A DNA stretch of 46,058 nucleotides, the filler included, from Catajapyx aquilonaris (lineage: Eukaryota), in assembly GCA_000934665.2 (NCBI GenBank). It is 2 parts of 2 records of this genome, joined end to end, with 100 filler letters (N's around TTAATTAATTAA, not from the genome) between each part and the next. Parts side by side here need not be neighbours in the genome. Positions count along the whole stretch, not along the records: positions 23,096 to 46,058 come from JYFJ02005775.1; 1 more part is not named here. The stretch is one strand, 5' to 3'. This document shows positions 6,612 to 46,058 of the stretch, piece after piece. The notes under the pieces are model-generated. The model ran no database searches. It worked only from the letters and a program-made list of their open reading frames with translations, and had not been told where the DNA came from. The position numbers and the translations under genes are program-made. How positions within the stretch are numbered: the stretch's first letter is position 1; each line of letters begins with the position of its first letter.

Positions 6612-6682
<71 letters not shown>

Positions 6683-23095: not shown

Positions 23096-23699
23096 TAGAA
23101 TATTAAGCCCCATTTTGCATGTATGTAGGACGCATAATTAGAGAAATTATCGGGTTAAATTGTAAACATCAGAATAGAAAAGTTTTTGACTTAGTCATTT
23201 CTCGTGACCTATGGCGGTTATCTGGTTAGAAAAATATGTCCCTGTGATCTTGACAAAATACGATCCTAAGTGCCAAATTGCGATTTTCTATTTAAAAAAA
23301 AGTCTGGTGAACATAGTTGTATGATCTCACATGGAATTACCCAACTAGAAATAAGTTGAACGAATAAGTAGCGGCGCTCTCAAACAGCGACCCGGACAGT
23401 GCGGCCACTTGCGGGACAGTGCGGCCAAGGGACCGCGCCCGTGACCGGTGAGCAGAGTGTTGTGGATTCCGGAACATCGCCAAATAAACATGTCCGTAAC
23501 CCGGCAGCGCCCAGGATTACCAACACATAAACACAAAAGCACATAAACAGTCGCGACATTACTTTTGCGGTCAATAGTACATGGACATGGTAGTTACTCC
23601 CTTGATGCAATGTGCTTTTCTTTGGTGTTACCTTGCCATTAGTGAGTTTGTTAATATATTCGGAGGCTGTGGGTGCGTAGCATCTACTGCATGCTTCAT

Positions 23700-24300
23700 G
23701 TTGAACAGCCATCTCTATGCAGCCTTTGGGACATGAAAAAGGCACAGCATCCTCTTGCTTGAAGGCCGCACATCTCTTATGGCATTTGCTTCAGCATGAC
23801 TGTCATTTGTGAGGAACACTTTTGGGGATAAATTCCCACCAAATGCAATGTTGCCGCATGCCTTCAAGTATAATGAAATCCTGCCCTGTAAAAATTATAA
23901 AGGCCATGATATTACTCGGAAGATAGCCTATGTAAGAAAACAGAGAGCCACTCCTGATATGCACAAGACCGTTATGAACTATTTGTGGCTAGTGTAAATA
24001 TGCCTTTCTTTTGAAATGCAAAGTATTTTTTTTAAATCATTATTACACAAGAATAGTAACTTTTACTTGTAGTCTGTTTCTTTCTGGCTTGAGGTAATAA
24101 TGACCCTGAGTGGTACTCCACCTGCAGCACAAAAAGTCAGAAGAAATCTGACAGAAAGTCCTTTCTGAGTCACAGGAAGAAGTGCTATCCATAAAAACAA
24201 TGTCACGGGCAACCGGTAGGGAATGAGCACGTTGGATAATTGGAGTCACTATCACCACAGCAAGGGGTTCTTGACGAAGGGTTCTTAGGATTGATCCCAT
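23700..24300 (-). pseudogene. MULE (Mutator-like) transposase fragment
   Basis: AVVIVTPIIQRAH...IVFMDSTSSCD, and AFGGNLSPKVFLTNDSHAEANAIRDVRPSSKRMLCLFHV (CxxH motif), with stops. Confidence 0.8.
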
Positions 24301-24844
24301 TTTATTCATGCTCAGGAATGTAGGTCATTTTCTGGGCTTCTTTCAATCTTGAGTGACTCGCTTAGGCATTATTCTGTGGTTCTATCCGGATGACCATGCG
24401 GTGGGCTAGTGGCCATGTTGGCGCTGGCTTTTTTCTGGAAACACAGCAGATGTCAGTGACATTTGCAGTTCTTCTAAAAAAATCATCTGACATTATTGGT
24501 GTTTTTGTGTAAGCCTCATGTTTTCATTATGGGATATCATTGTTGACATTCGCTGTTAATGCGTAATATTTTAACCAGGCAAAGAGTAGGCTTGGAAATA
24601 CCCATGGGAAGCATTATTTCGAATTTGATGATTTTTGACATTTGTTGTTTTTGGAAAAAACCCTTCAAATGTTTACTTTCTCGACAAAGTCAAAGGACGA
24701 GAGCACGTTGGCCTCATGTTGGTTGAGACCTTTGGTTGTGCATAAATCATGCGCGAGACTTGTGATACGATTCTTGGTTGTGTTTACTGCTTCCGAACAT
24801 TTTGTCCGCTTGTTAATTTTTGGAGTCAAATATCTTGACTCGGG

Positions 24845-24960
24845 ATGATTCACCAATGCCTCGACTGTTTCATTGCAAAACTGGTATCGGGCTCGGAATT
24901 CTGCTGGCCTGTACTTTTCGAAGGGATTCAACAGGGGTCGGAACTCATTCATGGCCTGCA
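24845..24960 (-). pseudogene. PIF/Harbinger (HARBI1-like) transposase N-terminal fragment
   Basis: NPFEKYRPAEFRARYQFCNETVEAL resembles the Harbinger N-terminal F..RYRF.KETV motif. Confidence 0.55.
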
Positions 24961-25399
24961 ATTTGCACATCCCATATAATAGCACATGTCCAAAAATAAA
25001 TGCTCTTTAACCTGTGTGTAAGTAAACAATGCAAGATATTTCTGCTGCAACAATTCTAATGCTGCACCACACTCAATGAGTTGCCTTCTGTGGTGCAGTG
25101 TTTTCACTTATATCGGAGTGTGTCCAGTGTGGACGGTGCGGGTGTCCACAGAAGCCCCTCCGTCCAAGAGGAGTCTGCACGTCTCAACCATACCACTCCT
25201 GGCAGACCAGTGAAGGGATGATCCTTCCCTCCACGTCCCTTGCGTCCACCTCTTCGTGTCCAGTCGCGTCCAGAAGAGACCGACAGATGTCCACCTTGCT
25301 GACTTGAAAATTGACCTCTATACCAGGTCCCATTTTTGGCAGACCTGGCACACTTAGCCATGCATATGAAGCAAACTTTGCTGAAAATCTTACCGTACG

Positions 25400-25815
25400 T
25401 GGGACTTTTAGCCAAGGTAAAGAGATCTTTGGTAAAGTTTTGCACAACATGGTTTGCACACTGAATATTTTTCAGTAGCAATCCATATGGTATACCGTCT
25501 CCATCCCCAATGAATTTCTTCAACATGAGTCCATAGCCTCCCTTGCGCAATGGAGGAACCCTTCCAGGATGATGTCAGATTCCATCTGCGTGGATGCCCC
25601 CATCCAGTTGCGAAAGCAAGTATGGTCTCCTGGTTCCTCATCTTTGTTTGCCGCTCTGGCGCACACCACACAATACGTGTTTCTCACACCAAGATATAGA
25701 AGTTTCTTGGCATGAAATGACAATGGCGCGTCCGGACTTCGTAGTATACCGATGGTCGTAGGAACGCTGGCACCAACCGCCATCCACAACTGCAGTAGTC
25801 CACGAGTGTGTGGCT
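25400..25815 (-). pseudogene. Arthropod Mutator-like transposase fragment (frameshifted)
   Basis: Across three frames: AVVDGGWCQRSYDHRY; LYLGVRNTYCVVC...HTCFRNWMGASTQMESDIILEGF; KFIGDGDG...IQCANH. Confidence 0.8.
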
Positions 25816-27069
25816 TCATTCCATAACATCCGCCATTCTCTCTCGAAAAGATAATGTACTGATCATGATAATGTAAGTTAATAATATATTCATGGGGAGG
25901 AGAGAGAATAAAATTACGACATTATTCATTGTTGTGCCTAAATATTGCTGTTTTCTGTACACAAGAAAGCTGCTGTGAAGGGTAATGTTTATCAAGACTA
26001 ATTGCAATTATTCAAGGCGGGAGAGACTTGTCTTTATCGTATGAAAATGTAACTATTTATGGATGTGTATGGTGTAATGGTATGTGATGCACGTCCTTTA
26101 TTGAATGGGATACATTCCAGCATATTTGCATTGAAATGGATTGTAATTGAAATATTCGCAAATGTGTAGCCTTAACACAACATGATTATGCCAAAACTAT
26201 AATCTAGTTAGGAGGGAATTGACTGACACCATGGTTATTATTTAAAGAATAATCTGAAGTATATAACCTGAAGAAATTAACAAGCAAATGTGCACAAATT
26301 AATTTCAATATGTACATGAAAATTTATGATGTCCTCTTGACCATTCAATTTCGAAAATATTTTAACAATGGATAACCCCAAATAAGTACTTGGCGCAACA
26401 TTGCACTTACACGCGATAAAATTATTGAAGTTACCTAGATGTTTTTGAAGGTATTTCTACACATTTCATTTATTGTAAATGTAAATTGGAGAGAGGATAT
26501 CTCAGCTACCTCAATATCCATACTGCACCTAGTGTGTAATTCATATTGTGCTATAATAAATGCAATTGCCAATTGTAACTTATAAATTTTCAGTTGTGAC
26601 TTAACTAGTGCTTCTGCTTTGGGCCATCAAGAGAACCTACCAAGACTGCAAGGACTCACAAATGGGCATAACATTATTTTATTGCAAACATGAAACTGAA
26701 ATAAACCATGTATATTTACATATCATAATGTCATATTCTTTGTATTCACCAATCTTGTCATCAGCAACTCAAGAATTGGCTGCTCATATTGATTCTGTAC
26801 AGCTTAGTTTAGCCAGTTGAACAAAATAACCATTATTGCTCCACACACTTAGAAATGTTTAGTCGAAAACGACTCAAATTTAATCAAAAATGTCTAAGGC
26901 ATGTATTGAAAATAGCCCCGAATAAACATTTAGGCATTTTGACTAATTTAGTCAGAAATGACTAAAGTAAATGTCACCCTTGCACATGTGTCAGCAATGT
27001 CATTCACCACCAGCATGCTCAGGAACAGAATGCCAAGATTTTCTGCTGCTCACTTCATTTGTCCAAATA

Positions 27070-27339
27070 ATCTTCGATGGTACTGCTGTGGGGTGGAGAC
27101 TTTTTTTTAGCGTACGGCAATCCTGCGATGTCTAGATGTTCACTTTCCACAAAATGCACAGAACAAACCTTTTGTGTGTTTGGAAATCCGGAAGTGTGGT
27201 CCCACATCACGCTTTATCCTCAAAACCCACTGTTTTGACAGCAGCTGTTAGTCACCTCACGTTATGGGAATGAATGAAAGGACACACCGGATTTGTCTCT
27301 TGACTCATTATTGCAATCATGAACACAGCAGTGGGGCAT
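27070..27339 (-). pseudogene. THAP zinc-finger domain remnant
   Basis: MPHCCVHDCNNESRDKSGVSFHSFP*...KQWVLRIKRDVGPHFRISKHTK/VCSVHF...AVP is the C2CH THAP signature, with a stop and frameshifts. Not in the ORF track. Confidence 0.8.
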
Positions 27340-27919
27340 TGTCCGAATGTGTTTGGTACTAGTACTGTGCACCTGAAATGCAAAGAAAGTGTGTTAATAA
27401 TGTCCTGGATGAGAAAATGGAAAGGTCTGCCTACCTCATTCACAGTGCTTCATTTCGTCAACTCTGGGGCGGACTCCTCAGCAGCCTTCATGCTGCCTCT
27501 GGACCGGAGCTCCCCTCTCGACCTCTGGGGACAGACTCAAAGACTGCCTGCTGTAATAGTATCTCGATTTCCCCCAGTTTTCAGCTATCTTAATTGCTGC
27601 CAGCTCAGCCGCACCCCTGCTGACTCAATGTCTTCTGCTTGAATTCCTCAAATCACTCGTCCTGGACTTGTCACCTCAGCCCTGCCCTTATTGTTGCTCA
27701 TCTTCCGCAGTCCCTGATTTTTGGGTTATTTCACTATTCCAAGAAGGCATGGAGGCGGTCTTCTCTCAATGCGGGCATTGCACCCCTGCTTGATGTGCTT
27801 CTCGTAAGCCCCTTTTGAAATGTACTCCTGCAAACAAGTGCAATTTTCGTAAGATACATTATCACTCGCGCCCAACTCGGAAGTCTGGATACATGGGATA
27901 CATTGGATTGGACTGTTAG

Positions 27920-28602
27920 TTGGCTGTTGTGCCAGCTTAGTGAGATTACCAGACCACATTGCTTCATCTGACATATGCCTCTCGTGCACACTCCTCCCAT
28001 AAGTTCCCATGTCGGGTGTTAGCATTACCTGCAAGATGCCCATGCCAAGTTGAATTAACTTTATTTTCCCAGTTAGCCCCCTCCCTCTACCCATAGGTAA
28101 ATATCTGGTAGCAAATAGAGCCTGTGATGCACATCCTTCGTGTCTCCTTCCACTGTTCCTTTTTCTGGTCCGGAGTATTCTGGCATACCGACATGACTTC
28201 TTGTCAAAATTGTTCAGTACCCCATCACTATTAATATTTGCAGCTAATGTGTTGCCTACCGTTCCGATGTGCTCTATGTTGTTATTGTTTATATGTTGGT
28301 ACAGAAAAACAATCTCGGGTTGAGCAGCTGTCATGTTGGAATGGTCCAACAACAGTTCACCATCTACTAGCCGACCCTGTTCATGCGGAGTTATGGCAGA
28401 GTCAGGACAGCATTTCAACAGTTTGTTTTTGAACTGCTGCAGAAGTTCTGCTGGTGCTGGCTGTGGCCTACTCCTTTTTGAAACGTGACACAAATCTTGG
28501 ACAACTGTTGTTTTATACATGTGGACACTTTCCCCCTTCATTTTTGCCCACATTCTTTCAATGTCGGTTGTGCTGAAATCCTCTAACGCTGTAATGGTCA
28601 AC
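27920..28602 (-). pseudogene. Transposon-associated YqaJ-like (lambda exonuclease family) protein fragment, N-terminal part
   Basis: LEDFSTTDIERMW (segment typically following a SWIM finger), then in a shifted frame CQNTPDQKKEQWKETRRMCITGSICYQI and KQCGLVIS. Confidence 0.6.
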
Positions 28603-29139
28603 CTGTGTAAAAAATAATAAATAATAAAAAATAATTCAGAGGTAGAATCTGACAATTCATATTTCTTCTTCCTAATTAGAGGCTATAAATTCAAATATGA
28701 TAAGCCTGAAGTGATGGCCTAATAAACAGAAATATATTGACACATTATCCTGCCTGTGCTCAGTTACTGTGACCCTAACTGAAACTTCACCAAGAACGGA
28801 GGGATGCATACCAGTCATGTCAGAAATAGTCCCTTATGCCATTAACACATGCAGAATGCATTCCTGTAGCGCCTAGTTCCAGGTTGTCTAATTTTATGGC
28901 GAGGCATTGTTGACCGCTATGGTACCCTACATATAGAAAAATACCATTGCAACCCAATGTTAGCCTTCAGGTTGTAAGCTTCTTCCTATTTTGACTGGGT
29001 TGTGTAACTTTGACCACTGGTCAAAGATACCCCACAGTTGATTGAACAATGACAGGGTTGTAATTGTTATTCTCTAACTCCCATATGCTACAGTTTTAAG
29101 GAAACCAATCAATACCAATGTGATAAGTGATAAATTCCA

Positions 29140-29545
29140 AACCTGCCGGTCACTTGCACACAGCCGTAAGCCTGACTGCCACACATATTGCCTTGTGCCT
29201 TACACTGGCATTTCAGTGTCTCAATGAGCTCTGAAGGAGCTGGGTCACCATTATCAATTACAGGAACGGGGATTCCATCCTTCATATTTCACCCATATCG
29301 AGTTATATATCCTCTGATTCATATGAGGGTGCATTCTGGTTACAAGCTTTCCGCAGCATAAACCTGAAGATGGGCTCGAAGAACATCCTGCAACAAGTTA
29401 GAGGATGTTGGTGGTAAGGCCATGACTTTGGGACATTTCTTGTTAGTGAATATCTTGAATCTAGCAGATTCCAGTGATGTCGTAGGAGATTTACTGTATC
29501 AAGCGATGAAATAGGTTATAGCTGCCTCCATTAGATCATCTGATG
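29140..29545 (-). pseudogene. Academ-like transposase C-terminal fragment (LPPT motif + Cys-rich finger)
   Basis: SLESARFKIF...MALPPTSSNLLQDVLRAHLQV...GWNPVPVIDNGDPAPSELIETLKCQCKAQGNMC. Confidence 0.6.
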
Positions 29546-29599
29546 TAGCGCCAACGACATTCTTGTATTTTCATGTCAAAGTATTTGTCGAAAATGTCC

Positions 29600-31180
29600 A
29601 CATCTCCAGCATCCAGAATTTATTTCATCCAATCCCCCCCCCCTCCCCACCAGGTCAACCCTTCTTTTATTTCCCATGTCAACAGTATCTTCAAGGCTGA
29701 GCAATGCAGTGAGCATCTCAGCACCTGACACATTGCTGCCCCTTGGAGGCTTGATCCGTGAGTTAGCCGAGAGGAGTCTGTACAGCTGGATAAATTGTGT
29801 AGGGTCTGGGTGATGGTTAGATCCACATGATTCCCGCATATTTCATAAGCAGTGGTGCTAGTAATGATGTGAGAATAAGTAGGGGAAGCTCTTGTACCTT
29901 GGGACATTTTTACATTTAAAATTTTAAACTTTGGCAATATCCGTTACTAGTCCTTTATGAGGCAGTGGATAAAGCACATACAGGGTGATCCGAAAGTTTC
30001 TCCCCCCATATTTGATGAGATTTCTCAGTAAGTACACATATTTATTTACTAAAAACAGATACAAATGGTCTATGGGATTAGTATTTAGTATGTCCACCAT
30101 TGTTTGCTAAGCATTCTTGTATTCTTTTTGGGAAACTCTCGATCAAATGAGTTGCGTACTCCTGGGTGATAGAAGCCCATTCTTCTTTTACACGGGAAAT
30201 CAATTGTTCACGTTTTCTTGGTCGCGGCTAGACTTAAAAACACTCTCCTGAAGGATGACCCAGACATGTTCTATGACATTAAGATCAGGAGAATTTCCAG
30301 GCCAGTCTTCCCATACATTATGAAGTTTTCCTTGATGGCACTCATTGTCATCCTTGCCGTGTGTGCTCGTGCTCCATCTTGCATGAGGACACTGAAGCGA
30401 GGCTTTGGAAACTGATGTGGGTCATCCATGGTCATCTTCAAGACTGGCAGGATTTCATTCCTGTAATATTCACCATTCAGTTTCCTTGGGTGCCACAATA
30501 TGCAGGTCCGTTTTTCCATACCGTGATATTCCACCTGCAACCATGATCTTGAGGGGAAATTTTGGGCAGGTTACAGGAGAGATGGTTGATGGATCTGATG
30601 TCCTGATTTTTCGATTTTGCGAGTTGGGCTTTGGTTGCAGTTCCACTGGAGATTCATCAGTGAAAAGGATGTGTGCACGCTTGATTCTCCCGGCAGCGTT
30701 GTCATCAGCGTACCCTTCCTTCACCATCCGCTGGCAAAATTTTATATGGTCATCAATGTTCTTCTGACTGAGAGGTGGTTTTACAGGTTGCTTGGGTGGC
30801 ATCCAGTATAACATCCTTGTCTTCAGAGATGGAATTGAGGCCACAAGTGTTGTGGAGATACTCCACCAGCCCAAGCGTACCCTCAAGAGTAACCAAAAGA
30901 CCCAGTTGTGTCTGGTGTCCCTTTCGCTTCTTTGCAATCTCTTTGCCACTGCCACAGATACTCACTGAATTCTTGGATGGACTGGAAATGGACCACAATT
31001 CATTGGAAACATAGTCCAACATAAGGTAAATCCACCTAAGTTGTAGTTCCTGGAATTCATTGCGTCACTCAGCTTATTTATTCGCTCAATGAAAGCAATG
31101 TTTGGTTCACAGCCTTCAAAACCTTCAGTTTGCCTTTGAAGAAAACGCTGCATGGTGCGTGCAACCTTGCCACTGAAGAA
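29600..31180 (-). pseudogene. P-element/THAP9-like transposase fragments, interrupted by a Tc1 fragment
   Basis: FFSGKVARTMQRF..GFEGCEPNIAFIERINKLSDAMNSR; TQLGLLVTLEGTLGLVEYLHNTCG; RESCGSNHHPDPTQFIQLYRLLSANSRIKPPRGSNV. Confidence 0.85.
29981..30815 (-). mobile_element. Tc1-like (DDE) transposon, 5'-truncated, retaining one TIR
   Basis: ILFTDES ... LMQDGARAHTA ... WPGNSPDLNVIEHVW ... RIQECLANNGGHTKY* (stop 30078-30080). TA|CAGGGTGATCCG end at 29981. Confidence 0.88.
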
Positions 31181-31298
31181 CTACAAGGAGATGTAATAAC
31201 CGAAATGAATATTTTCATGAGCAAGCTAGAAATTGTCCCTGAATTCACAGATTTTTATTGGGGCTACCTGGTGCATTGGATTGCTTGCTACTTGCTAT

Positions 31299-31850
31299 CA
31301 GGCCCGTAGCCAGACGTTTTGGTCTGGGGGCGCAAAAGAAATTCTGGGGTGGCCCCTCCCCGTCTCTGAATCTCTCGTGTAGTTCCTCCAGCGTTTGATC
31401 CATGGTGGGTGGGGGAACAACTGGATTTCTGTCCCGAAGAAAAAAAATAATCTTTCGCTGCAGAGCAGTTGAACTCCCGGTAGACGTGATGAAATTACCT
31501 TTTCACTGTCATCAGTGCCTTCCCCTACTGCTGCTCTTGATCCAATGCTGCACAGCAGAATGGAATTGCTGAATCTGTGGCTGAGTTTTACGATTGTCTT
31601 TTTTCCACATATCGCAGATGTATCAGCGGACGTGTTTCCTTAATCTTCGGCTTCACAAACTTTCTTGTAAGCGTCAGTGGCAGTACGCGAAATGTCTTGA
31701 AATGCGCTGTCACATCTCAAACTTATCAGCGCTTCTTCAGTCGGACGAAACAAAGCAACAACCTTGGAGAGATCAGCATCCTTTGCTTGAAGTTGCTGAT
31801 TCGCTGGCTTCAATGTTCCTAATATCACTCGCATCATTTCCGCTGTGGTC
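31299..31850 (-). pseudogene. hAT (ZMYM1/TTF-type) transposase fragment next to a hAT-like terminus
   Basis: ILGTLKPANQQLQAKDADLSKVVALF...LISLRCDSAFQDISRTA. hAT-like end CAGGCCCGTAGCCAG at 31299. Confidence 0.6.
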
Positions 31851-32019
31851 TTCTAGACTACTAATAGAATAAATAGATAATTCCTCACACCAGGACAAGC
31901 CAATGTGGGCCACTGTTTTGTAACAGTAAAAAATCCGCAGTGAAAAGTTTAAAATAATACTCAACGCTCCCCCAAAAATGCAGTGACTCTCTCGATCGCT
32001 CTCTCTCTCTCTCATCGTC

Positions 32020-32200
32020 ATTGTCTCCGTCCAGATATCAGTTGTAAGCACAATGCTTCAGCATGATTTGAGAATGTCTCCAACCTTTGCCTTCAGCATG
32101 GCATGTTTGGCTTCAAGCATTTTTGTAGTGGTCTTCTCACGTGGCAGTTGGTACAATGGATTTAACTTCTTCACAAAAGTTTTAAACCCCCTCTTATCTT
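32020..32200 (-). pseudogene. hAT (Ac/ZBED-type) transposase fragment
   Basis: GFKTFVKKLNPLYQLPREKTTTKMLEAKHAMLKAKVGDILKSC*SIVLTTDIWT (first catalytic D motif). Confidence 0.8.
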
Positions 32201-32209
32201 TTCAGGTAC

Positions 32210-32900
32210 AAGTAAACTCATGAATGCAGATAGAACATGCTGAGCACCTTTGTTGGGATGCACAAATCGCCCGTGTTTATTCAGTGAAATACTCTGCGCC
32301 TGAAAGTGAAAGTACCACGTTCTGCATATTTCCATAATTACTAATAGTACACTTATATGATCTTGCCTTTAGTGAGTTTGACCAGCAGTTCCACTCCGCA
32401 CGCATCCGCCATGTCCATAAGCCCATCAGTGAGTTTGTCAATTCAGCGGCTGTGAATCCCATGCAGATAGGAGTACTTGAGGATCTTATGGGGTGCGTTA
32501 GTATTTGCTTCTGCTCCATATGTATGGCAATAAGACTATTCTTGCTCCAAAACGGCCAGCAAAAAGTTGTAAGTTTTTTTTTGCAGAATCTCCAAATTCC
32601 TTATCATGTGAAGTTTACCTTGCCAAGCCCTCCCCATATGCTTCCATGCACGAAAGCAAGAAAAAGAATTGAATCTCTAGCTAGGGCCTGTTCTTCCTTG
32701 TCACTGAGGCACCAGGCACCTGCGATATTTTCATGAAACACATCTCGTACAACAACAAATATTACCTGGAAATCATAACTGTTAGTCCCATGCGTGGAGT
32801 CAAGAAATATGACCTTAACCCGGTGCGATGTTGGAATTATTAGATTGGATGACAAGAATGAAATAGTCATTCGTTTTCAAGTCATTGATATTAGTACCCT
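32210..32900 (-). pseudogene. MULE transposase fragment with SWIM remnant
   Basis: VIFLDSTHGTNSYDFQVIFVVVRD...AWCLSDKE; HMGRAWQGKL; HKILKYSYLHG; degenerate Cys/His C-terminus. Confidence 0.8.
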
Positions 32901-33944
32901 GTTTTCCACATTGAAACTTTGCAGGAACATTAGCTGGCTGTCTCCACACCATATTGAGGCACAGCTTTGTTGGTTTAGGCAGTTTCCTTGAAACATTGGG
33001 GCCCATCACCAAGATGGATTCGCTTGACAGCCAAATTGAAGTGGCAAGTCTGTCAGATCTTGGGAACGAGCACTGCATTTTTAGATGGTTCTGGGAGTCC
33101 TAATTCTCGTCGGTATTTGCTTTACCGAGTTTTTCTTGAACATACAAGTGTCAAAAAAGTTCGCGTTTTTTACAGTTTTCTTATTATATGAGACGCCTAA
33201 AACCCAGTAGAGGGCAAACCATATCACGATTTCTGTGATGCCTTCTTCACGCACACTAACTCGACTCCATCGAGGTAAAGCGTGAAAGTGCTATCTGCAT
33301 CAAATAGTTGGTGGGTGTAGCAATGGTCACTGCCAGATATGGATATCTCCCGTCGGATGGTAAAACCCTATATTTGAGTTTTCAGCAACTTTTCAGGAAA
33401 AAATATTTTCATACAAACCCTTCCCGTTCGGTTCCTATAACAGTTGTAACGAGTATGATAAGTGTCATGGGGTACTTTTAAATGCTGAATCCAATCATTT
33501 GGACGAAATCTCGCTGAAAGCAGTAGTTTGACCTCAGTGGAGTATATATTGTTTTACCATCTTGCTTATTGAAGTCACATTTTGGTAAAACACCATATAT
33601 ACCATTTGTTCTGTTTTACCATCGTGCATTTCAGTTAACTTAATATGCCGGAACATGTCAAACTGCACAATACACATCGTATAATCACCTGTAGTCCTGC
33701 TTTACACTTTCGCATCACTTACAGCACGTCTAGGGATGTACTGGAGGAATAATAATCACCATGAAGCAATAAATAGCATAAGCCGTGTTAAGGTTTGAAG
33801 AGTCTGGACATTGCAGCCATTTTATTTCTGTATAATTTATACACCCCCTCACAAAGGCCAAGACTGACGTATGAATATTGTGATCATTGCCAGTTCGTTT
33901 ATTCGCAATGATTCCCCAGGTCAGTGCTCTCCTCGCTTTCAGGA

Positions 33945-35600: not shown

Positions 35601-35994
35601 AAACTTGACAGCACTTAACAGCGGCATTGAAAATCTCTCACTGTGTTGGTACGGGTCCTTAGTCGTAAAACGGGTTTCGTTCGCACAACAGTGTAGGGTC
35701 GTAAAACCGCTGCTCGGATATGATTTCACACGTAACCCTAAGATGCCCCCCCGCCTCGCAAAGCGAGTCACGTCATAAAACTGCACAGTACCCACAAAGG
35801 CAACTAACCTTCTTATCCATGATGGTCTTTGCATCCTGTTCATTGACGAATGTGACGGTCGCGAAATTGTATTAGTGTGCACAGAAACACACGTAACCAT
35901 ATGTTGTGTACCCAAAAGCAGCCCGCTACACTGTGTATGCATGAAAGCACACGCAACCAGGGGAAAGTGGATGATGATGATGATAATAATCTCA

Positions 35995-36200
35995 CATGGT
36001 CATGTGCTTCTACGGCTACAGTCAGCAGTTGGTTGAACATTGAAGGTACTGTCTGGAAGGTTCCATCAACATGAAGTTGGCCATTGCCCTGCATGGCACC
36101 TTTCACAATCCTTGTGGATTGAAAAATTACGGCTGTTACAGTGCCATTATTCTCAGTGGCTGCCAGAAAGAAGCGATATTGTGGTAGTTCTCGCAATTTG
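35995..36200 (-). pseudogene. MULE transposase fragment (first catalytic D)
   Basis: AVIFQS...QLHVDGTFQTVPSMFNQLLTV. Confidence 0.85.
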
Positions 36201-36689
36201 ACGACTTAGTCATCCGAAGATTCCGAAGATTAATTGGGGAAGTCGTGGCAAGCTCTCCTTCGCCTCTTCCTCATCGAATTTTATACATTGGGAAACCCAA
36301 CGTCCCTTGAAGCCTGCGGGTCCCTGCAAATCCACATATACTAATGAAATTGGTGATTGCATTATGGGAAAAGAGGGTTCCTGTACAGAGTGCAGATCAT
36401 AGGCTAATACCATGCAAATGTATACAGAGCCGGCCCATGGGGGAGGCGGGGGGAACATTTGTCATTTTTTCATTGGCCCACTATAATATAATAAAAATTC
36501 ATTCTTGCATCATGTGTAAGATTCTTGAACCGAACACACACTGGTATGTTCGTTTTTCATTACGAAGAACACGTGACTTAGGTCTACTGATAATTATACA
36601 CACACACACACCTTGTAAAGAGTATTCCCGAAACTACGCTATCTGTTAACAACATGTGCGCCTCCGTCTTCGATAAATGCCTTCTTGTG

Positions 36690-36805
36690 CGGGGAGAGCT
36701 GGCGAATGAAGTTCTCCACAAAGACGGATTTTCCACAACCCGTTGGTCCTGAAACAATAGCTGTGAATGGGTGTTGAAAGGAGACTCGTACGATTCCTCC
36801 TCCAT
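36690..36805 (-). pseudogene. Maverick/Polinton packaging ATPase N-terminal fragment
   Basis: FQHPFTAIVSGPTGCGKSVFVENFI (Walker A), immediately downstream of pPolB on the same strand. Confidence 0.85.
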
Positions 36806-37114
36806 GTCTGACAGTGTCTGGCCGTGCTTGACCGTGTCTGAACTTGAACTGTATTTGATTACAAATATACACAAAATATATGCATATACGAACATATACA
36901 CTGCACATGCATGGTAATTATAACAACACCGACAAACAGACAAACCAAGCTAGATGTACTATGTATACTATAGTGTATGTACAATTTTTGCAATATATAC
37001 AGCGTAAATGCATAAATAAATACACAATAATTTGGTACAATTGGTTTATAAATCAGAAAGTCTGGGTGTGAGACACTGCCTGGTCACTGCTCTGAACACA
37101 ATCTGTACCCAATC

Positions 37115-38250
37115 GGTACCCATACGGACGGGAGTCGTGTCCTTGCCTGACTCTTGTCATATACGATTTTATAGGTCTTTTCGACTAACCTTGTTACCAC
37201 AGAGGGATCTCGCAACCTCTCAATTTTTCTCGGGTCGCGAATGAGGTATGAAGATGGCCCCCTCTCCTAAAACCATGCCTTTCAGGGTCTCCAGGTTGAC
37301 CAGCTGAGAGGTCCTGTAATTCTGCCTGATTCCTTTGGCTTTAAGGCACACCGACTCTTCCCCCAGCTCGTTTTTAACAATGTAACCATAGTTCTTGGGC
37401 CCACCAGAGCAGAAGAGGGTTATGGATGCCCCAGGTCCATAGCCTTCAAGCTCGTTTGTAAGTTCGCCTAGATAATATAATCGCCGGTAGGCAAAAGCCT
37501 CTCACCGGGACGGGTATAACGCTGTCAGTGTCGCAATAAAGAGTGCGGTCTTTCAACTCGTGCAAATACTCGTACAACTTTAGGCGAGCCTGAGCGGTGG
37601 TAAAGGCCCCTAGAATGACGTTTGTTGTTGGATGGCATAAGGGCTTGCTCGTGACATACATTGTGTCACCCACCGGTATAAGAGAGGTTACCTCACACCC
37701 CGGCTCGAGGAGAACCTCCCATAGATGTTGGGCAGTATGCACAACTCTGGTGCGCGCTTTCGCAGGATTCAGAGCGTATCTACCCCAAAAACTGTTTAAC
37801 ATCAATTTTGCGAGTTCTCTCAGACCAGGATTATTACAAATTCTAGTGCATTCGAGTGTCACCCCCTCTCGAGTCTCATAATCGCGAATGTACCGCGCCT
37901 TGTCCTCGTTGGTGTTACACCATTTAGGCCAGCCTGATGCCTCCGGCTTCATTTTTAGGAATGTGTTTATGTAAGACCCAAAAAGTCCCATATTACCAGT
38001 GGGGCTCTTGGATGGGATCGCGGTGCTGCTGTGAGACTATTATTTCCACACCTCGTAGAACTCTTATGATTTTATATCCCCAATTCTTGGGCCTTTCGGA
38101 GTTCCAGTGACACCCAGGTGCCAATATTAGGGCCCTCTCGTTGTCTGCTGCATGCTTTCCACGCACTTTCTGCATAGTGTAAAGACGAGTTTGCCACCGA
38201 TCTTACTCCCCAACACCGGTTTGTCCAGACCAGTCTTTATGATCACTCCC
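37115..38250 (-). pseudogene. Maverick/Polinton protein-primed DNA polymerase B, C-terminal half (frameshifted)
   Basis: GKLVFTLCRKC..GTWVSLEL; GLFGSYINTFLKMK.EASGWP; AKLMLNSFWGR; TTAQARLKLY..LYCDTDSVI; LGELTNEL..FCSGGPKNYGY..LKAKGI. Confidence 0.93.
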
Positions 38251-38294
38251 GGACTACCAACTGTGTCGTCCACCGTCCAGGTGACCCTGTGAAA

Positions 38295-39144
38295 CTAATA
38301 ATATACTCGGTCAAAAGAATCAACGTTTCTGCGGCATACTGGGCACCTGTGCGGTAGTGGGAGCCCCCATCTGTTTACCATACGGAGTCTCTCTCATTGC
38401 ACCCATGGCAGACGCACAGATGCGTGCACGGAGCATATAATATGCATTGCCTGGCTTCGAGTAGGCAGCAGACGCAGATCAAGGGATTCTGGCCTGCTGC
38501 GTGTGCTGGCTGCTGATCTGCTGCCTGACCTTCCGGCTCAAGATTTTGGGTCCAGTTGGTTGCATGTGCTGTCCTAGCGAGGAACTCGCGGATGCTGCAC
38601 TAATTCCTGGCTAACCTTTGAGTCGCCTGAGTGATTCTCTTGTCCTGCAGGATGTACTTATGTTTCTTGTTTCGGGCGATCTGGAGGCCTCCGAGGGAGC
38701 GTGTGAAATCCTGCCGTGATGACAGTTTCACGTCGCGGAGTTTCTCTGAAATATTTTGGAAGCGTCACGTAAGGTCTGGAGTGCAAAATTATAACCCTGA
38801 AACAACAATGAGGTTGATTAATTACCTAATAAGGCCCACACACTTGGATGGTACCCAATTTGCCGGAGGAGCTTGGCGTGGAAGCTCTCCACATTGTTTT
38901 TGGTCCTCCTCTGTTGGGAGTGTACTGACAGAATGTGTGGTCCATACCCCTTGACCCAGAATTGCGTAACGTAATAACGGATGAAGGACCGGCCCAGTGC
39001 TGCTGACTGTGGACTGAGAAGGTCAGCATCGGCTTCTAACACTTCTACCCCCTCCATTATCTTCTCTGGGGGTAGCAGTGGCAGAGCCATCGCCATTTTG
39101 ATGACGAGGGCTAGCCTGGGGTCCCCTCCAACTGCGGTGGTCAT
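38295..39144 (-). pseudogene. MULE transposase C-terminal region fused to a C3HC4-type RING finger (two exons: 38826-39144, 38295-38745)
   Basis: MAMALPLLP...RRTKNNVESFHAKL..HPSVWALL|EKLRDV...RITQATQRL..IREFL...CVCCLLEARQCILYAPCTHLCVCHGC.../CPVCRRNVDSFDRVYY*. GT-AG intron 38746-38825. Confidence 0.8.
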
Positions 39145-39147
39145 ACC

Positions 39148-39345
39148 CCAGTGAAAATATCCATAAGATTTTTATGGATATTCATGACATTTTTCTTGGA
39201 TCCTACGGTTAACCATAATTTCCTGATGAACCTATGGATATCCATAAATTCCAACTTGGATATTGTGTATGTTCATAACATTGCTCCAAGGATTTCATGG
39301 AGATCCATAATTTCCTTCATGGACCTGTGAATATCCATGAAATCA
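39148..39345. repeat. Degenerate ~30-bp tandem array, probably a DNA-transposon subterminal region
   Basis: About six units with core TGGATATCCATAA/TGA, directly abutting the truncated 5' end of the MULE fragment. Confidence 0.55.
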
Positions 39346-40299
39346 TGTTTTTCTCAAAAATCACATTTTGTTAGAAACAATAACGTTTTCCAGCTGAGGG
39401 ATTCAAATAAATACGATAAATATAGCTGTGGAGCTAATATTTATTCAACGCAGGTGAGACAATATAGGAAGAGTAGTAATTGTTAGCATTAAACAGGTTG
39501 GAACGAATACATTTTGTGACACTCTTGCGACGTATTTGCGTCACATAATAAACTGTGGATCCATTGTACTTCAGTTTATTCAGTTACAACGTGCATTACA
39601 ATCAACGTCAGGGAATGATGGTGAGATGGGCGAGAAGTGAGAGGTAGGGAGTATTTGTCCAGTCCCCAGGATATGCTCCCGGGGAACTGGCCTGGAGCAT
39701 TGGTGGTCGCCTGGTTAAATAGTCGGGTCGGCACAAAGCATGATGGGTATTCAAGTAGGTAAGGTAGGAGTTACGTCATCATCGGCGTGCATGATGGTTA
39801 TGATACACTTCTAACACGATATATACATGGGTAGAAAAGTGGGTCAGTTACCCCAGCCACAACGGTACATCTTACTTATGAAAATGGAGGAGATAACAAC
39901 ACATTGAAATGAAAGGGAAGGTGAAAGGGAAAGTCCAAATGACCTTCGGGAGTCCGGAAGGGTCACAGGAATCCAGGAAGGTCACACACCTCCCTCCGGA
40001 GACACAACCCACCCATCAACTTTAAAGGTGGTTATAATGGGTTTGTTCCATTCGTTATTGGTACGCACAAAATAAATAATCAGGACGATGCAAAAGGGCA
40101 ATGGTACCCCGTCCAAAATAGGAAAACTGATGTAGGTTGATTATGTATGATAAACTAAACATCGCCATCCCCAATCTCTGGTGAAACACCTCCGCACGGA
40201 AGGGGGGGGGGGCACACTAAATAGATNAAATAGATGGTGGGCGTCCTTGGTCGGCGTCGTCGTCTGCCTCGTACATCACAGGGAGAGCGGTGGCTTCGT

Positions 40300-40560: not shown

Positions 40561-40824
40561 AGTTGTTACTGTGTGGTTGGAATTATTAGTATGTAAAGGC
40601 TACGGACTTCTTAGAGTGAACAGACACGCCCCCCCGGGCGAACCAATGGGGTCGCTGTAACCGTGGGTCACAGTAAGGTTGCCAGGCGAAATACATATAA
40701 TACAATAGAGACAATAATATAGAGGTTTGTTTGGGGGCGGGGCCATGGGCCCAGCAGTTCACTCTAAGGAATCCGTTGCCTATAATATGGGTTATATTTT
40801 GGTGATTAATACAAATATTCTGGC

Positions 40825-41244
40825 ATGAACAGGAGATGCAGCGAAAATGCCTTTGGCATTATGTCAGCCAGGTGGAGGGTGTTCCGGCGTCCACTTCTCC
40901 TGACGCCTGTGAATGTCGATAGAGTTGTGAAGGCCTGCGTGGTTCTGCACAACTTTCTGATGCCTAAGGAGCGTGAACCAAGGACACTAAGAAGATATTG
41001 CCCCCAGGAGTATGATGCTAAACTGGCAGACAATTACAGACCACATATTGCCACTTGGCGACGGGATCTGCAGCGTGAACCATGCAGGGGCCTGCGAGAT
41101 TTGCCAGGAACTCATGCAAGAAATTTTTCCTTGGATGCATCGCAAGTCCGCAACACTTTTGCCACCTACTTCATGTCACCAGTTGGTGCAGTTTCATGGC
41201 AATGGAAACTTCCTGGTGTGAGGAGGGAGATCTGTGTCATATGA
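40825..41244 (+). pseudogene. PIF/Harbinger DDE transposase C-terminal fragment
   Basis: RRCSENAFGIMSARWRVF...VVKACVVLHNFL...ASQVRNTFATYFMSPVGAVSWQW. Confidence 0.9.
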
Positions 41245-42479: not shown

Positions 42480-42770
42480 TGAAACCACTAGAAATTGGCG
42501 TTCTTTTGCATCCCTCACCTGCTCAGGGGTCATTTTCCTGAGCATACTCGCAATGTACCCAGTGATGAAATATATGTCATCCTTCTGCTGTGCTACAGCC
42601 CGACGCTCGTTCATGGTCTGCAGGGTGCTGACTATTGCAGCATCCACGGGGTCATCATTAGGCTTATTAGGCCTGCGCTTTTTACCCTGCCATGCAGGAC
42701 CTGGCGTGTTGTCCTCTGATTCTGGTTCTGCTGATTTATTCTTGGTCCCTACTGATCCCATCATAGGAGA
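42480..42770 (-). pseudogene. Harbinger accessory (MADF/Myb-type) protein C-terminal fragment with BESS-like helix
   Basis: KKRRP...DPVDAAIVSTLQ...DDIYFITGYIASMLRKMTPEQVRDAK, convergent with the Harbinger transposase. Confidence 0.55.
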
Positions 42771-43485: not shown

Positions 43486-44334
43486 CACAGTGGGATGAAA
43501 TCGAAAAAAAACATGCCAATGGCAAAGAAAGCCTCATAAAATAACTGGATCTATACGAAAATCAGGAATATGGGGTTCTTCTGGTCGCGGAATTCAAATC
43601 CGTTGCTAAAAATTCAATATTCAAAGTTTCAGTCTTGATGTCCGCCATATTGGATCCGCCATTTTGAATATTGAATTTTTAGCAACGGATTTGAATTCCG
43701 CGACCAGAAGAACCCCTTATTCCTGATTTTCGCATAGATCAAGTTATTTTATGAGGCTTTCTTTGCCATTGCCATGTTTTTTTTCGATTAGGTCCCACTG
43801 TGCGCCCCTCCAGGAAGAAACACATATTGTTTCCAGATGGGCACCTTTCGACATCTGATATTTTTTCGCTTGTGTCAAACAGGGTAATAGCCATCGGGTG
43901 ACGTAAAAACGAACACCCCATCTCACCCCATGCTTTTTGAATCTCCACCACTTGTTGGTAATTATCAGTTAATTTACCGATAATGCTTGCTTGCTTCTAC
44001 AGAGGTCAGGAATGCCTGCGGTACGGTTTTTTCGTGCCAGTTCGACGGAACAATGTTTTTGCTACTCTTACTGAAGAAATTTTTACCCTTTATTAATGTT
44101 TATAACTATCAGGGGATACCTTTGTAACATGGTCGCAATGATTTGGATTAGGTGTGAATGAAATGCAGGATTTCTGGGCCGTGAATAAGGCTTTATGAGA
44201 TGTTCAAACCTGACATCATTATCCATACATGATGGCCTTGATACTTTAGAACACATCTACGTGGATTGCGGACCCATCCAAGCATCTCTATAAAATGGGT
44301 TTGCCATGTTTTTTTTCGATTTCATCCCACTGTG
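43486..44334. mobile_element. Transib-type non-autonomous element
   Basis: TIR CACAGTGGGATGAAATCGAAAAAAAACATG. 5-bp TSD CGACG (43481-43485 / 44335-44339). Internal palindrome 43486-43802 ends in a third TIR. Confidence 0.85.
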
Positions 44335-44789
44335 CGACGTGTTTGGCACCACCCTTGCACCTCGTCTACCCCGTCAGGAACGCCCCCTCTACTCGCCGGG
44401 GCTCCTCGCCCCCAAAACACACCCTCAACAAACACAAATGAATTCAAAATTAATGGGTTCCGATGCACTACCCTGCCAGAAGTGCAACCACAATATATAC
44501 ATTTTTGATAATGAAAACAACAAGAAGAAAAAACCAAGAAAACACGGGGGGGGGGGGGGAATCACCTGATAATAATTCTTTAGTGTTGCCACTTAACTTT
44601 ATATCGCTGTGGACACTTCAGAAGTTGAAACCACAACAATATTGGTGTCCCCAAAACCATTGCCTGTAATAATAATGTATCGAAATATCTACACGCGGAA
44701 TAACGGTGTATATAATGTGCTTAGCCCTCAAAGAATCTCTCACTTACTCACGCAATCATCCAAAACGTCCCCACGTTTTCGCTTTCTAC

Positions 44790-45245
44790 TTGGAGCTGTC
44801 TTCTTCACATTCTGAAGTTCTGAGCCTTCAGAATGTGCTCCGGATCACGAATCCGCAAATTGCGATAAAATCGCGAATCCGCCATCTCGGGAAGAAGGCA
44901 GCCACGAAAGAAGGCTTCCAGCTTGGGGAACATCTGATCACTCCAGAAGGCATCGTCTCTCTCAATTCTTTCTACCATGATTCCACGATGGGTGTACAAT
45001 GTACATCAGGAAATAACACCACTTCCTTCCCGTGATGTGCAACTGCCCTTGAACTTGGTAGTAATAATGATGAGAGCGCTTCAGGTGCAGGTTGCCTTGA
45101 CCGTCGACTGTGCAGGAAGCTCTACTCTTTGGGATAGAATCAATGCCCTCAATCGGATCCATGTTCCTGATGGTGAAGGGACACTTCACTTCCAGCAAAC
45201 CGTCATCGCCAATCAAGCCATCAGGCGAAGTGGCGATAGTCCAGG
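44790..45245 (-). pseudogene. YqaJ-like viral recombinase / lambda-exonuclease domain (transposon-associated), frameshifted
   Basis: ATSPDGLIGDDGLLEVKCPF...LKRSHHYYYQVQGQLHITGRKWCYF...ERIERDDAFW..MFPKLEAFF..CLLPE. Confidence 0.9.
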
Positions 45246-45717
45246 CAATTTATAGTTTGACCTGGGCAAAATTGCTCCATAAGGTTTCTGAACGGTTTCC
45301 AGTTCAGAATCCATTGCTGAATAACATATCCAAAGTCCGCCAAAATCGGTCCAAGGGAACACCCCCAAAAATTGACAAAATGGCCCCCAAGCCACATTTA
45401 AGTAAATAATTTTTTACTCCGAAACCAAGGCTTGAGGGACATTTTGTGTTCAGTTCGAATGAGTGTAGAATGGTGCGAGGATTATTTTGGGACCATTTCC
45501 GGCCATGTAGGGGTCATAGGTCACTGACCAGGTCAAATTATGTGCAATACAGTCTCTGACCTCCAGCATATTCATGCCTGCACACTCGCAAGGCGGGGAA
45601 GGGAATGGGGTTAGGATTCAGCGCGCTCAAGAAGCTGACGAGGAGTGTCAGTTGCTGGTGAGCTTCAGCAGAAAGGGATGGCCAGCGAAGCAACATGTTC
45701 CTGTAGTCATCAAGCGA

Positions 45718-46058
45718 TATTGGGCAGAGCGAGGTTCCTTCACCATCACGCAAGACTTACTCCTGAAGGATGGACGGATTGTCATCCCAACTTCGCTGAG
45801 GGCCGAGATGTTAGATCGCCTGCATGAGGGACATCAAGGCATCTCTCGGTGCAGGGAACGCGCCAAGCAGTCGGTGTGGTGGCCAGGTTTGAGCGTGGAC
45901 ATCCAGAGGAAGGTGGAATCATGCTTGCCCTGTATCCAGAATCGAGTGCCTCGGAAGGTTACGATGCTTTCCATGCCGACACCAACCAGCCCATGGGAGC
46001 GGGTGGCAGTGGATATCCTCCAGGAGATGGGACAAAATTATTTGCTGGTAGTCGATTA
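45718..46058 (+). mobile_element. Ty3/Gypsy integrase (HHCC zinc-binding domain and start of core), runs off the window end
   Basis: LLLKDGRIVIPTSLRAEMLDRLHEGHQGISRCRERAKQSVWWPGLSVDIQRKVESCLPC...PWERVAVDI...YLLVVD. Confidence 0.92.

What the first reader, a model, noticed from the sequence alone, without database searches (positions are those of the whole stretch)
23096..46058. Strand-biased patchwork of transposon coding fragments: candidate uni-strand piRNA cluster dominated by DNA transposons
Seen: about 22 short (0.1-1.1 kb), decayed coding fragments from more than 10 TE groups, mostly lacking their own termini and abutting one another, with no host gene. About 20 of 22 are on the minus strand; only the Harbinger transposase and Gypsy integrase are on plus. 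A naive two-sided binomial gives p~1e-4, which overstates the case because some fragments come from the same element. Known: uni-strand piRNA clusters such as Drosophila flamenco accumulate TE fragments antisense to a long precursor. Inference: a + strand precursor here would give antisense piRNAs against MULE, hAT, P, Tc1, Academ, Sola and Maverick elements. That would be a cluster aimed mainly at DNA transposons and polintoviruses rather than at LTR elements.
Basis: partly seen in the sequence, partly recalled or inferred. Interest (0 to 1): 0.75.

Follow-up and report, generated by a model that had tools for sequence, protein, structure and literature searches.

The report
Strand-biased transposon graveyard, unproven piRNA cluster
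This 23-kb stretch of an arthropod genome is a patchwork of dead jumping-gene remnants that mostly point the same way, the layout of loci that make small silencing RNAs, but no RNA data could be brought to bear to show that it works as one.

Summary
The block 23096-46058 is a patchwork of short, decayed transposon coding fragments with no recognisable host gene. The minus-strand bias is real but weaker than reported. I found tool support for 13 separate fragments, 11 on minus and 2 on plus, not about 22 (20:2).

The strand-blind Pfam scan gives 9 of 116 minus ORFs against 2 of 121 plus ORFs with transposon-type hits (Fisher p=0.031). Depending on which fragments are merged, the two-sided binomial p is 0.02-0.11, not 1e-4. 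MULE, hAT, P, Tc1, Maverick, Harbinger and Gypsy integrase are confirmed. Academ and Sola were not found.

A homology-free signal agrees with the bias: the unannotated 12 kb of 23.1-40.2 kb has T>A on the plus strand (z=-3.7).

The block starts at an artificial linker (N44-TTAATTAATTAA-N44, 22996-23095). It is therefore a separate sequence piece, and its flanks and promoter are unknown.

The piRNA-cluster reading fits the layout but is untested. Earlier unchecked notes describe three other one-way transposon arrays in this genome. I put a uni-strand piRNA cluster at about 0.4. The rivals are chance and an ordinary long plus-strand transcription unit.

The parts
22996..23095 (.). Artificial-looking linker N44-TTAATTAATTAA-N44. 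It marks a join between two sequence pieces, so the block begins at a piece edge.
   Evidence: sequence read directly
23718..23894 (-). MULE transposase domain fragment (MULE-C)
   Evidence: Pfam MULE E=1.2e-5, profile 60-98/99; tile E=1.4e-4; own MULE profile positions 145-182, E=0.033
25107..25921 (-). Mutator-like transposase fragment spread over three frames, collinear with the profile (150-317 of 357)
   Evidence: Pfam Mutator E=4.8e-14 (25523-25921) and 0.0029 (25641-25862); 0.012 for 25107-25574; tile E=8.5e-6 spanning 150-316
27127..27330 (-). THAP zinc-finger domain broken by stops. It may be the front of a transposase; which element it belongs to is unresolved.
   Evidence: Pfam THAP E=1.1e-5, 26.5 bits (cut-off 23.9) on the read-through tile 26096-27594 minus, residues 89-156
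29579..29842 (-). Possible tail of the P-element-type transposase (RNase H C-terminal part). Weak.
   Evidence: Pfam TNP-like_RNaseH_C E=0.19. Counted only as part of the P fragment.
30203..30961 (-). Tc1/mariner-type transposase fragment, lying between the two P-element pieces (nested insertion in the same orientation)
   Evidence: Pfam DDE_3 E=1.7e-5 for 30203-30421; tile E=3.7e-4. The upstream ORF 30473-30961 had no Pfam or PDB hit and is assigned from a recalled DDE motif only.
30965..31180 (-). P-element-type transposase fragment (GTP-binding insertion domain)
   Evidence: Pfam TNP-like_GBD E=1.6e-7; tile E=1.7e-6
31950..32198 (-). hAT transposase N-terminal fragment
   Evidence: Read-through P0164 matches one 508-aa protein, P0165, at E=6.1e-8. 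P0165 carries Dimer_Tnp_hAT at E=7.2e-12. tblastn of P0165 residues 13-94 gives E=4.5e-12.
32607..32876 (-). MULE/ZSWIM-type RNase H-like fragment
   Evidence: Pfam ZSWIM1-3_RNaseH-like E=5.3e-4; tile E=0.006
35843..36331 (-). MULE transposase core fragment (MULE-B), covering the part just before and into the MULE domain
   Evidence: tblastn with 150 fetched MULE relatives: 9 matches, best E=3e-6 to P0128 residues 56-163. Own MULE profile E=2.7e-12, positions 58-117. No Pfam hit.
36642..36917 (-). Maverick/Polinton-type packaging ATPase fragment (Walker A region)
   Evidence: Pfam Adeno_IVa2 E=6.3e-4 and other P-loop families; same frame as the polymerase fragment in tile 36596-38093
37449..38036 (-). 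Maverick/Polinton-type protein-primed DNA polymerase B fragment
   Evidence: Pfam DNA_pol_B_2 E=2.4e-5; tile E=1.7e-4
38298..39171 (-). C-terminal half of a MULE transposase with a C-terminal RING finger (MULE-A)
   Evidence: ORF 38821-39171 has 366 relatives at E<=1e-3. 11 of 12 long relatives scanned carry MULE, 5 of 12 RING, 4 of 12 FLYWCH. Own profile: 38603-38764 E=3.5e-6, 38378-38599 E=2.3e-4. Pfam RING E=7.4e-4.
40810..41241 (+). Harbinger/PIF-type transposase C-terminal fragment
   Evidence: Pfam Plant_tran E=9.3e-6 and DDE_Tnp_4 E=1.3e-5; tile E=7e-5
44965..45249 (-). YqaJ-like exonuclease fragment (mobile-element or virus type; element family unresolved)
   Evidence: Pfam YqaJ E=2.6e-7; tile E=1.3e-5
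45520..46056 (+). LTR-retrotransposon integrase N-terminal zinc-binding region. Runs off the window end.
   Evidence: Pfam Integrase_H2C2 E=8.5e-16; tile E=7.4e-15
23096..40200 (.). Sub-block in which all 10 supported fragments are on minus and the plus strand has T>A, including in unannotated DNA
   Evidence: AT skew -0.047 overall; -0.045 in the unannotated 12,050 nt, z=-3.7

Best explanation
The block is a nested pile of old, broken transposon insertions. They are mainly cut-and-paste DNA transposons (at least four MULE fragments, hAT, P, Tc1) plus a Maverick remnant. Their orientation is polarised towards the minus strand over at least 23.1-40 kb.

The most likely reason for the polarity is that the region is, or was, read as one long plus-strand non-coding transcript. 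Its processing into piRNAs would give guides antisense to these elements. That makes it a polarised uni-strand piRNA cluster. In such a locus, insertions that place the transposon antisense to the transcript are kept, and sense insertions are tolerated mainly far from the promoter.

Shown: the fragments, their families, their orientation, their decay, the nested Tc1-in-P arrangement and the compositional asymmetry. Inferred: the transcript, its direction, and any piRNA production.
For: - Orientation: 11 minus and 2 plus supported loci. Strand-blind Pfam count: 9 of 116 minus against 2 of 121 plus ORFs, Fisher p=0.031.
- Independence of the fragments. Four MULE-superfamily fragments cannot all come from one copy. 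The C-terminal half (38298-39171) lies upstream of the core fragment (35843-36331) on the coding strand. The core fragments at 32607-32876 and 35843-36205 cover the same profile region. The families are unrelated and there are no large direct repeats, so duplication of one unit is excluded.
- Both plus-strand fragments lie at 40.8 and 45.5 kb, the 3' side of a plus-strand transcript. [quoted passage not shown] They also state that de novo candidates chosen by LTR enrichment plus strand bias made one-strand piRNAs in both species (2 of 2) that had small-RNA data.
- Plus-strand T>A skew extends through the unannotated DNA of 23.1-40.2 kb (z=-3.7) and is absent from 40.2-46.1 kb.
- Leads, not tested here: earlier notes describe three other one-way transposon arrays in the same genome.
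Against: - There are no RNA data of any kind for this locus, so the defining property is untested.
- The bias is modest once fragments are merged into insertions (p=0.022 to 0.11), and the case was selected from a scan of very many windows.
- Three of the eleven minus loci came from searches started only from minus-strand ORFs.
- AATAAA occurs 17 times on each strand in 23096-40200, above the shuffle mean on both (7.3 and 8.9). Poly(A) hexamers are therefore not depleted on the proposed precursor strand.
- No intact or recent insertion is present (the largest transposon ORF is 196 aa). The locus shows no sign of recent trapping, and old fragments may be too diverged to guide silencing.
- No promoter can be named, because the block starts at a piece edge.
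- In Rhodnius, uni-strand clusters do not have polarised transposons (PMC11614815 passages), so polarity is not a general arthropod cluster feature.
- The skew could simply reflect the purine-rich sense strands of undetected minus-sense remnants.
Confidence: 0.4

Rival explanations
1. This is ordinary repeat-rich, gene-poor DNA in which the orientation excess is a chance run, noticed because a very large scan selects extremes.
For: - With conservative merging the split is 8:2 to 9:2, p=0.11 to 0.065.
- Only 27% of the block is annotated.
- Poly(A) hexamers are symmetric.
- All fragments are old and broken, as in any transposon graveyard.
- One other claimed one-strand array in this genome was not confirmed on follow-up (e1-7594389; unchecked note).
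Against: - The strand-blind ORF-level test gives p=0.031.
- The compositional skew in unannotated DNA points the same way (z=-3.7; Mann-Whitney against the left piece p=0.004).
- Both exceptions cluster at one end.
- Three other windows of this genome are noted as one-way arrays (unchecked).
Confidence: 0.27
2. The block lies inside a long plus-strand transcription unit that is not a piRNA source, such as a giant intron of a host gene or a long non-coding RNA. Sense-oriented insertions were removed by selection because they disturb splicing or termination.
For: - The polarity and the T>A excess on the plus strand fit it. Recalled, not from a call: human introns show T>A on the sense strand.
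- CpG observed/expected is 0.62 in the block. That is closer to the methylated-looking FEZ gene body (0.47) than to the CpG-rich 19.6-23 kb stretch (0.94).
- An earlier follow-up on another array in this genome judged this reading almost as good as the piRNA one (e1-7596252; unchecked).
Against: - No exon or host-type domain on the plus strand in 23 kb.
- Recalled, not from a call: intron orientation bias is usually moderate and weakest for DNA transposons, whereas here it is about 85% and carried by DNA transposons.
- AATAAA is not depleted on plus.
- The flanks are unknown.
Confidence: 0.2
3. The piece is an assembly artefact: a collapsed or chimeric repeat contig whose order and orientation do not exist in the genome.
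For: The block begins exactly at a piece edge and consists only of repeats. One isolated N lies at 40227.
Against: The fragments are diverged, unique and of unrelated families, with almost no internal repeats. That is not what collapsed young repeats look like. A misassembly would not by itself create polarity.
Confidence: 0.08

Closest known systems
Drosophila flamenco and flam-like unistrand piRNA clusters (PMC10643416; passages read)
   Same: Many unrelated transposon remnants are packed together and polarised on one strand. The opposite-strand insertions lie towards one end. Such loci have been predicted from strand-biased transposon content alone.
   Different: flam-like clusters are defined by antisense Gypsy-family LTR elements. 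Here the polarised fragments are DNA transposons and a Maverick, and the one LTR-type fragment points the other way. Their piRNA output, promoter and somatic expression are shown; here none is. Those loci were detected with 100-kb windows; here 23 kb is visible.
Uni-strand piRNA clusters of the bug Rhodnius prolixus (PMC11614815; passages read)
   Same: They are arthropod clusters transcribed from one strand. They contain DNA transposons (Mariner-like elements among the most abundant; hAT, SPIN and OC1 copies).
   Different: The authors state that transposons in those clusters are not polarised. This block is polarised, and its small-RNA output is unknown.
Unidirectional flamenco-like cluster of Aedes aegypti rich in endogenous viral elements (PMC7161354; search listing and start of abstract only)
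   Same: By its title, it is a one-direction cluster outside Drosophila compared with flamenco.
   Different: Its content is viral fragments with small-RNA evidence. I did not read the paper beyond the listing.
Ordinary nested transposon graveyards of heterochromatin
   Same: Decayed, truncated, nested fragments of many families, without termini and without host genes.
   Different: Such regions are not expected to show orientation bias or a strand skew running through unannotated DNA.

Membership tests
flamenco-like (polarised) uni-strand piRNA cluster | Abundant 23-30 nt piRNAs mapping to one genomic strand | not testable with these tools
   No whole genome is held.
flamenco-like (polarised) uni-strand piRNA cluster | Dense transposon remnants with strong orientation bias | tested here: met
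   11 minus and 2 plus supported loci. 9 of 116 against 2 of 121 ORFs, p=0.031. All 10 loci in 23.1-40.2 kb are on minus. Significance is modest (p=0.022-0.11 by locus).
flamenco-like (polarised) uni-strand piRNA cluster | Enrichment of Gypsy-family LTR elements antisense to the transcript (criterion in PMC10643416) | tested here: not met
   There is only one LTR-type fragment (integrase, 45520-46056), and it is on the minority strand. The polarised fragments are DNA transposons and Maverick.
flamenco-like (polarised) uni-strand piRNA cluster | A single upstream promoter driving a long transcript | not testable with these tools
   The block starts at a linker between pieces. No RNA data are available.
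flamenco-like (polarised) uni-strand piRNA cluster | Extent of tens to hundreds of kb | tested here: inconclusive
   At least 23 kb is visible. It is cut by a piece edge on the left and by the window end on the right.
nested transposon graveyard | Fragments of many families, decayed, truncated and lacking their own termini, with no host gene | tested here: met
   At least 9 groups. Stops and frameshifts run throughout. No terminal repeat pairs. No host gene recognised.
intron of a plus-strand host gene | Flanking or internal exons on the plus strand | tested here: inconclusive
   No host-type domain on plus within the block. The flanks are not available.

The most novel reading that the evidence does not exclude
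This arthropod keeps a set of flamenco-style polarised uni-strand piRNA clusters, and this one is devoted mainly to cut-and-paste DNA transposons and Maverick/Polinton elements rather than to retrovirus-like LTR elements. If so, orientation-selected one-strand transposon archives would be neither a Drosophila speciality nor tied to Gypsy control.
Probability: 0.3. Interest if true: 0.6.

Novelty: new member of a known kind. Interest (0 to 1): 0.4.

Why it matters
Polarised one-strand clusters are well studied only in Drosophila, where they guard ovarian somatic cells against Gypsy-type retroviruses. In the one other arthropod paper I read (Rhodnius), uni-strand clusters are not polarised.

A polarised archive of DNA transposons and Mavericks in a distant arthropod would show that selection on insertion orientation acts more widely and on other element classes. 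It would also give a sequence-only handle for finding such loci.

As it stands this is a candidate. The layout is suggestive, the statistics are modest and the function is untested.

Tried and rejected
- Whole genome: none is held, so there is no genome-wide orientation background.
- Whole-frame read-through translations of 3.8 k residues scanned with Pfam gave nothing beyond the ORF scan, with lower scores. Shorter tiles added only THAP, plus a weak YqaJ N-terminal hint at about 27958-28155 minus (E=0.047).
- A loose Pfam scan (E<=1) of 132 unexplained ORFs added only two weak collinear hits: Mutator at 0.012 and TNP-like_RNaseH_C at 0.19.
- The 318-aa ORF 27729-28682 has no relative among 477 candidates of 174-557 aa and no look-alike in the scan's notes.
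- ORF 35843-36205: the word-based search found nothing. The fetched MULE set later matched it.
- ORF 42375-43028: only a weak BESS-like lead (score 0.87, below the useful range).
- ORF 35475-35999: no usable atlas hit. ORF 35086-35562: no look-alike in the notes.
- Three searches of solved structures (Tc1-like, hAT-like and P-like ORFs) gave only chance-level rows or none.
Whether Pfam holds models for them was not checked, and I had no transposon protein library, so this is not evidence of absence.
- My early idea that the block shares a bidirectional promoter with the FEZ-like gene was dropped. A linker separates the two pieces.
- Poly(A) hexamer depletion on the plus strand was tested and not found.
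- Rfam and tRNA scans found nothing in the block.


Full report
**What the window is.** The 46,058-base window is not one continuous stretch. At 22996-23095 there are 44 N, then TTAATTAATTAA, then 44 N. This looks like an artificial spacer with stops in all six frames, placed between two sequence pieces.

The left piece carries a FEZ-like host gene on the minus strand. Four ORFs between 10308 and 19549 match Pfam FEZ at E values from 2.3e-31 to 8.5e-14, collinear with the profile. The finding's block, 23096-46058, starts exactly at the piece edge and runs off the window. It therefore cannot be assumed to adjoin the FEZ gene, and neither flank of the block is visible. Earlier notes of the scan call this genome arthropod (unchecked). 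No whole genome is held.

**Strand-blind annotation.** I took all 410 stop-to-stop ORFs of 50 aa or more in the window. Of these, 237 start in the block: 121 on plus and 116 on minus. All were scanned against Pfam.

Transposon-type hits at E<=1e-3 on minus:
- MULE, 23718-23894 (1.2e-5)
- Mutator, 25523-25921 (4.8e-14)
- DDE_3, 30203-30421 (1.7e-5)
- TNP-like_GBD of P-type transposases, 30965-31180 (1.6e-7)
- ZSWIM1-3 RNase H-like, 32607-32876 (5.3e-4)
- Adeno_IVa2-type ATPase, 36642-36917 (6.3e-4)
- DNA_pol_B_2, 37449-38036 (2.4e-5)
- RING, 38378-38599 (7.4e-4)
- YqaJ, 44965-45249 (2.6e-7)

Transposon-type hits on plus:
- Plant_tran/DDE_Tnp_4 (Harbinger type), 40810-41241 (about 1e-5)
- Integrase_H2C2, 45520-46056 (8.5e-16)

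That is 9 of 116 minus ORFs against 2 of 121 plus ORFs (Fisher p=0.031). Weak hits that are not transposon-type (Ank, SH2, a viral nucleoprotein bundle, DUF1289, Pelovaterin) lie on both strands, and I treat them as noise or unresolved.

I then read all six frames through their stops, with X at each stop, in 15 tiles (90 tile-frames). This recovered the same families and added one: a THAP domain on minus at about 27127-27330 (E=1.1e-5, above Pfam's cut-off). No new plus-strand family appeared at E<=0.05 apart from one chance-level terminase row (0.046).

**Targeted searches.** These were not strand-blind, because I started them from minus-strand ORFs only.
- ORF 38821-39171 has 366 relatives at E<=1e-3 in the full HMMER library.
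- Of 12 long relatives scanned, 11 carry a MULE domain, 5 a C-terminal RING and 4 a FLYWCH finger.
- tblastn of the 150 fetched relatives against both strands of the window hit two places only: 38390-39171 minus and 35927-36331 minus (best E=3e-6).
- I built a profile from 31 of these relatives and searched it against all 1,570 ORF pieces of 20 aa or more on both strands. It placed 38298-39171 on profile positions 191-483, 35843-36205 on 58-117 (E=2.7e-12) and 23718-23894 on 145-182 (E=0.033).
- A read-through of 31776-32291 minus matched one protein at E=6.1e-8. That protein carries the hAT dimerisation domain and maps back to 31950-32198 minus at E=4.5e-12.

**How many independent insertions.**
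- The polymerase and ATPase fragments are adjacent and in one frame, so I count one Maverick.
- The RING belongs to the MULE C-terminal half.
- On the coding strand, the MULE C-terminal half (profile 191-483) lies upstream of the core fragment (58-117), so they are not one collinear copy.
- The cores at 32607-32876 and 35843-36205 cover the same profile region, so they are separate copies.
- The Mutator-type fragment matches a different Pfam model (PF20700).
- The Tc1 fragment sits between the GBD piece and a weak RNase H C-terminal piece of the P-type transposase. This reads as a Tc1 inserted into a P element in the same orientation.

This gives 11 minus and 2 plus loci (two-sided binomial p=0.022). 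With Pfam only it is 9:2 (p=0.065). If THAP is merged with the Mutator fragment, or the two collinear MULE pieces are merged, it is 8:2 (p=0.11).

Academ and Sola were not found by any search.

**Structure.** None of the coding fragments has its own terminal inverted or long terminal repeats. The only strong inverted repeats in the block are two small foldback elements, at 34644-34796 and 43481-43804, the latter with a partial copy at 44301-44339. There are no large direct repeats, so the same-strand fragments are not copies of one duplicated unit. Only 6.3 of 23.0 kb is annotated.

**A homology-free signal.**
- Plus-strand AT skew is -0.047 over 23096-40200 and +0.011 over 40201-46058.
- After masking every annotated fragment, the remaining 12,050 nt of 23096-40200 still show -0.045 (z=-3.7).
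- 12 of 17 one-kb windows are negative, against 8 of 22 in the left piece (Mann-Whitney p=0.004).
- The purine skew turns positive at 39.1-41.1 kb, around the plus-strand Harbinger fragment, and at 45.1-46.1 kb, at the plus-strand integrase.

There are two possible readings. Much of the unannotated DNA may also be minus-sense remnants. Most, though not all, annotated fragments are purine-rich on their sense strand: the AT skew on the sense strand is zero or positive in 10 of 15. Alternatively, the region may carry a transcription-linked mutational asymmetry. I cannot separate the two.

**Against a long plus-strand transcript under selection.** AATAAA occurs 17 times on each strand in 23096-40200, above the dinucleotide-shuffle means on both (7.3 and 8.9). 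Every fragment is old, and the largest transposon ORF is 196 aa. There is no sign of recent capture.

**Other context.** CpG observed/expected is 0.62 in the block. It is 0.47 in the FEZ gene body and 0.94 in 19.6-23 kb. This suggests past germline methylation of the block but does not discriminate between the readings.

**Literature.** In PMC10643416 (passages read), flam-like clusters were found de novo from LTR enrichment plus strand bias. Both candidates with small-RNA data made one-strand piRNAs. [quoted passage not shown] In this block both plus-strand fragments lie at the right-hand end, which fits a left-to-right plus-strand transcript. That boundary was chosen after seeing the data.

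In PMC11614815 (passages read), Rhodnius clusters are uni-strand and contain DNA transposons, but their transposons are not polarised. Polarity is therefore not a general arthropod cluster trait. PMC7161354 was seen only as a search listing.

**Earlier notes of this scan (unchecked leads).** Three other pieces of the same genome were judged one-way transposon arrays, and one claimed array was not confirmed. If the three hold, polarised arrays recur in this genome, which raises the prior that this one is real. None of them has RNA support either.

**Verdict.**
- The patchwork and a minus-strand bias are real, but weaker than stated.
- The piRNA-cluster reading fits the layout and remains untested. 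I put it at about 0.4.
- Chance is at about 0.27, an ordinary long plus-strand transcription unit at about 0.2, and misassembly at under 0.1.
- It fails one defining feature of the flamenco family (antisense Gypsy enrichment). If functional, it would work like flamenco without being a member of that family in the strict sense.

Noticed in passing
window 22996-23095: N44-TTAATTAATTAA-N44 spacer. The window joins two separate sequence pieces, so features on either side should not be read as neighbours.
   Followed up: yes
window 10308-19549, minus strand: FEZ-like (fasciculation and elongation protein zeta) host gene. At least four coding exons are collinear with Pfam FEZ (1-43, 42-79, 74-132, 166-238 of 240). 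The gene body is CpG-poor (o/e 0.47), and the stretch at 19.6-23 kb is CpG-rich (0.94).
   Followed up: partly
window 6534-6605 minus; second degenerate copy 6895-6953; inverted repeats 6012-7306: A tRNA-Ser(GCT)-like sequence (Rfam 42.3 bits) lies inside a nest of inverted repeats, with an 88% identical partial second copy 360 nt away. It looks like a tRNA-derived SINE or a MITE composite rather than a working tRNA gene.
   Followed up: no
window 3302-3997, 13078-13683, 13846-14152, 15873-16901: Several MITE-like inverted-repeat elements (arms of 46-178 nt, 78-98% complementary) in the left piece, around and within the FEZ-like gene.
   Followed up: no
window 38298-39171 minus; relatives P0022, P0026, P0027, P0059, P0077, P0138: A widespread MULE transposase family carries a C-terminal RING finger, often with an N-terminal FLYWCH finger. 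One relative (P0100) has a HECT domain and another (P0135) a Ulp1 protease domain. A ubiquitin-ligase-type domain on a transposase may deserve its own look.
   Followed up: partly
window 36596-38093 minus: The Maverick polymerase tail and the packaging ATPase Walker A region lie in the same reading frame about 500 nt apart. This suggests an internally deleted Maverick copy.
   Followed up: no
window 27729-28682 minus: The longest open frame of the block (318 aa) has no detectable relative and no Pfam hit. It lies in the most strongly skewed kilobase (purine skew -0.13). It may be an unknown transposon gene remnant or a chance frame.
   Followed up: partly
window 34644-34796 and 43481-43804 (partial copy at 44301-44339): Two small foldback elements with 95% complementary arms (63 nt and 142 nt) inside the block. 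They could give hairpin RNAs if transcribed.
   Followed up: no
window 25111-25317 minus: A single ankyrin-repeat-like stretch (Pfam Ank E=4e-4) just downstream of the Mutator-type fragment. It may be a host fragment captured by a MULE, or chance.
   Followed up: no
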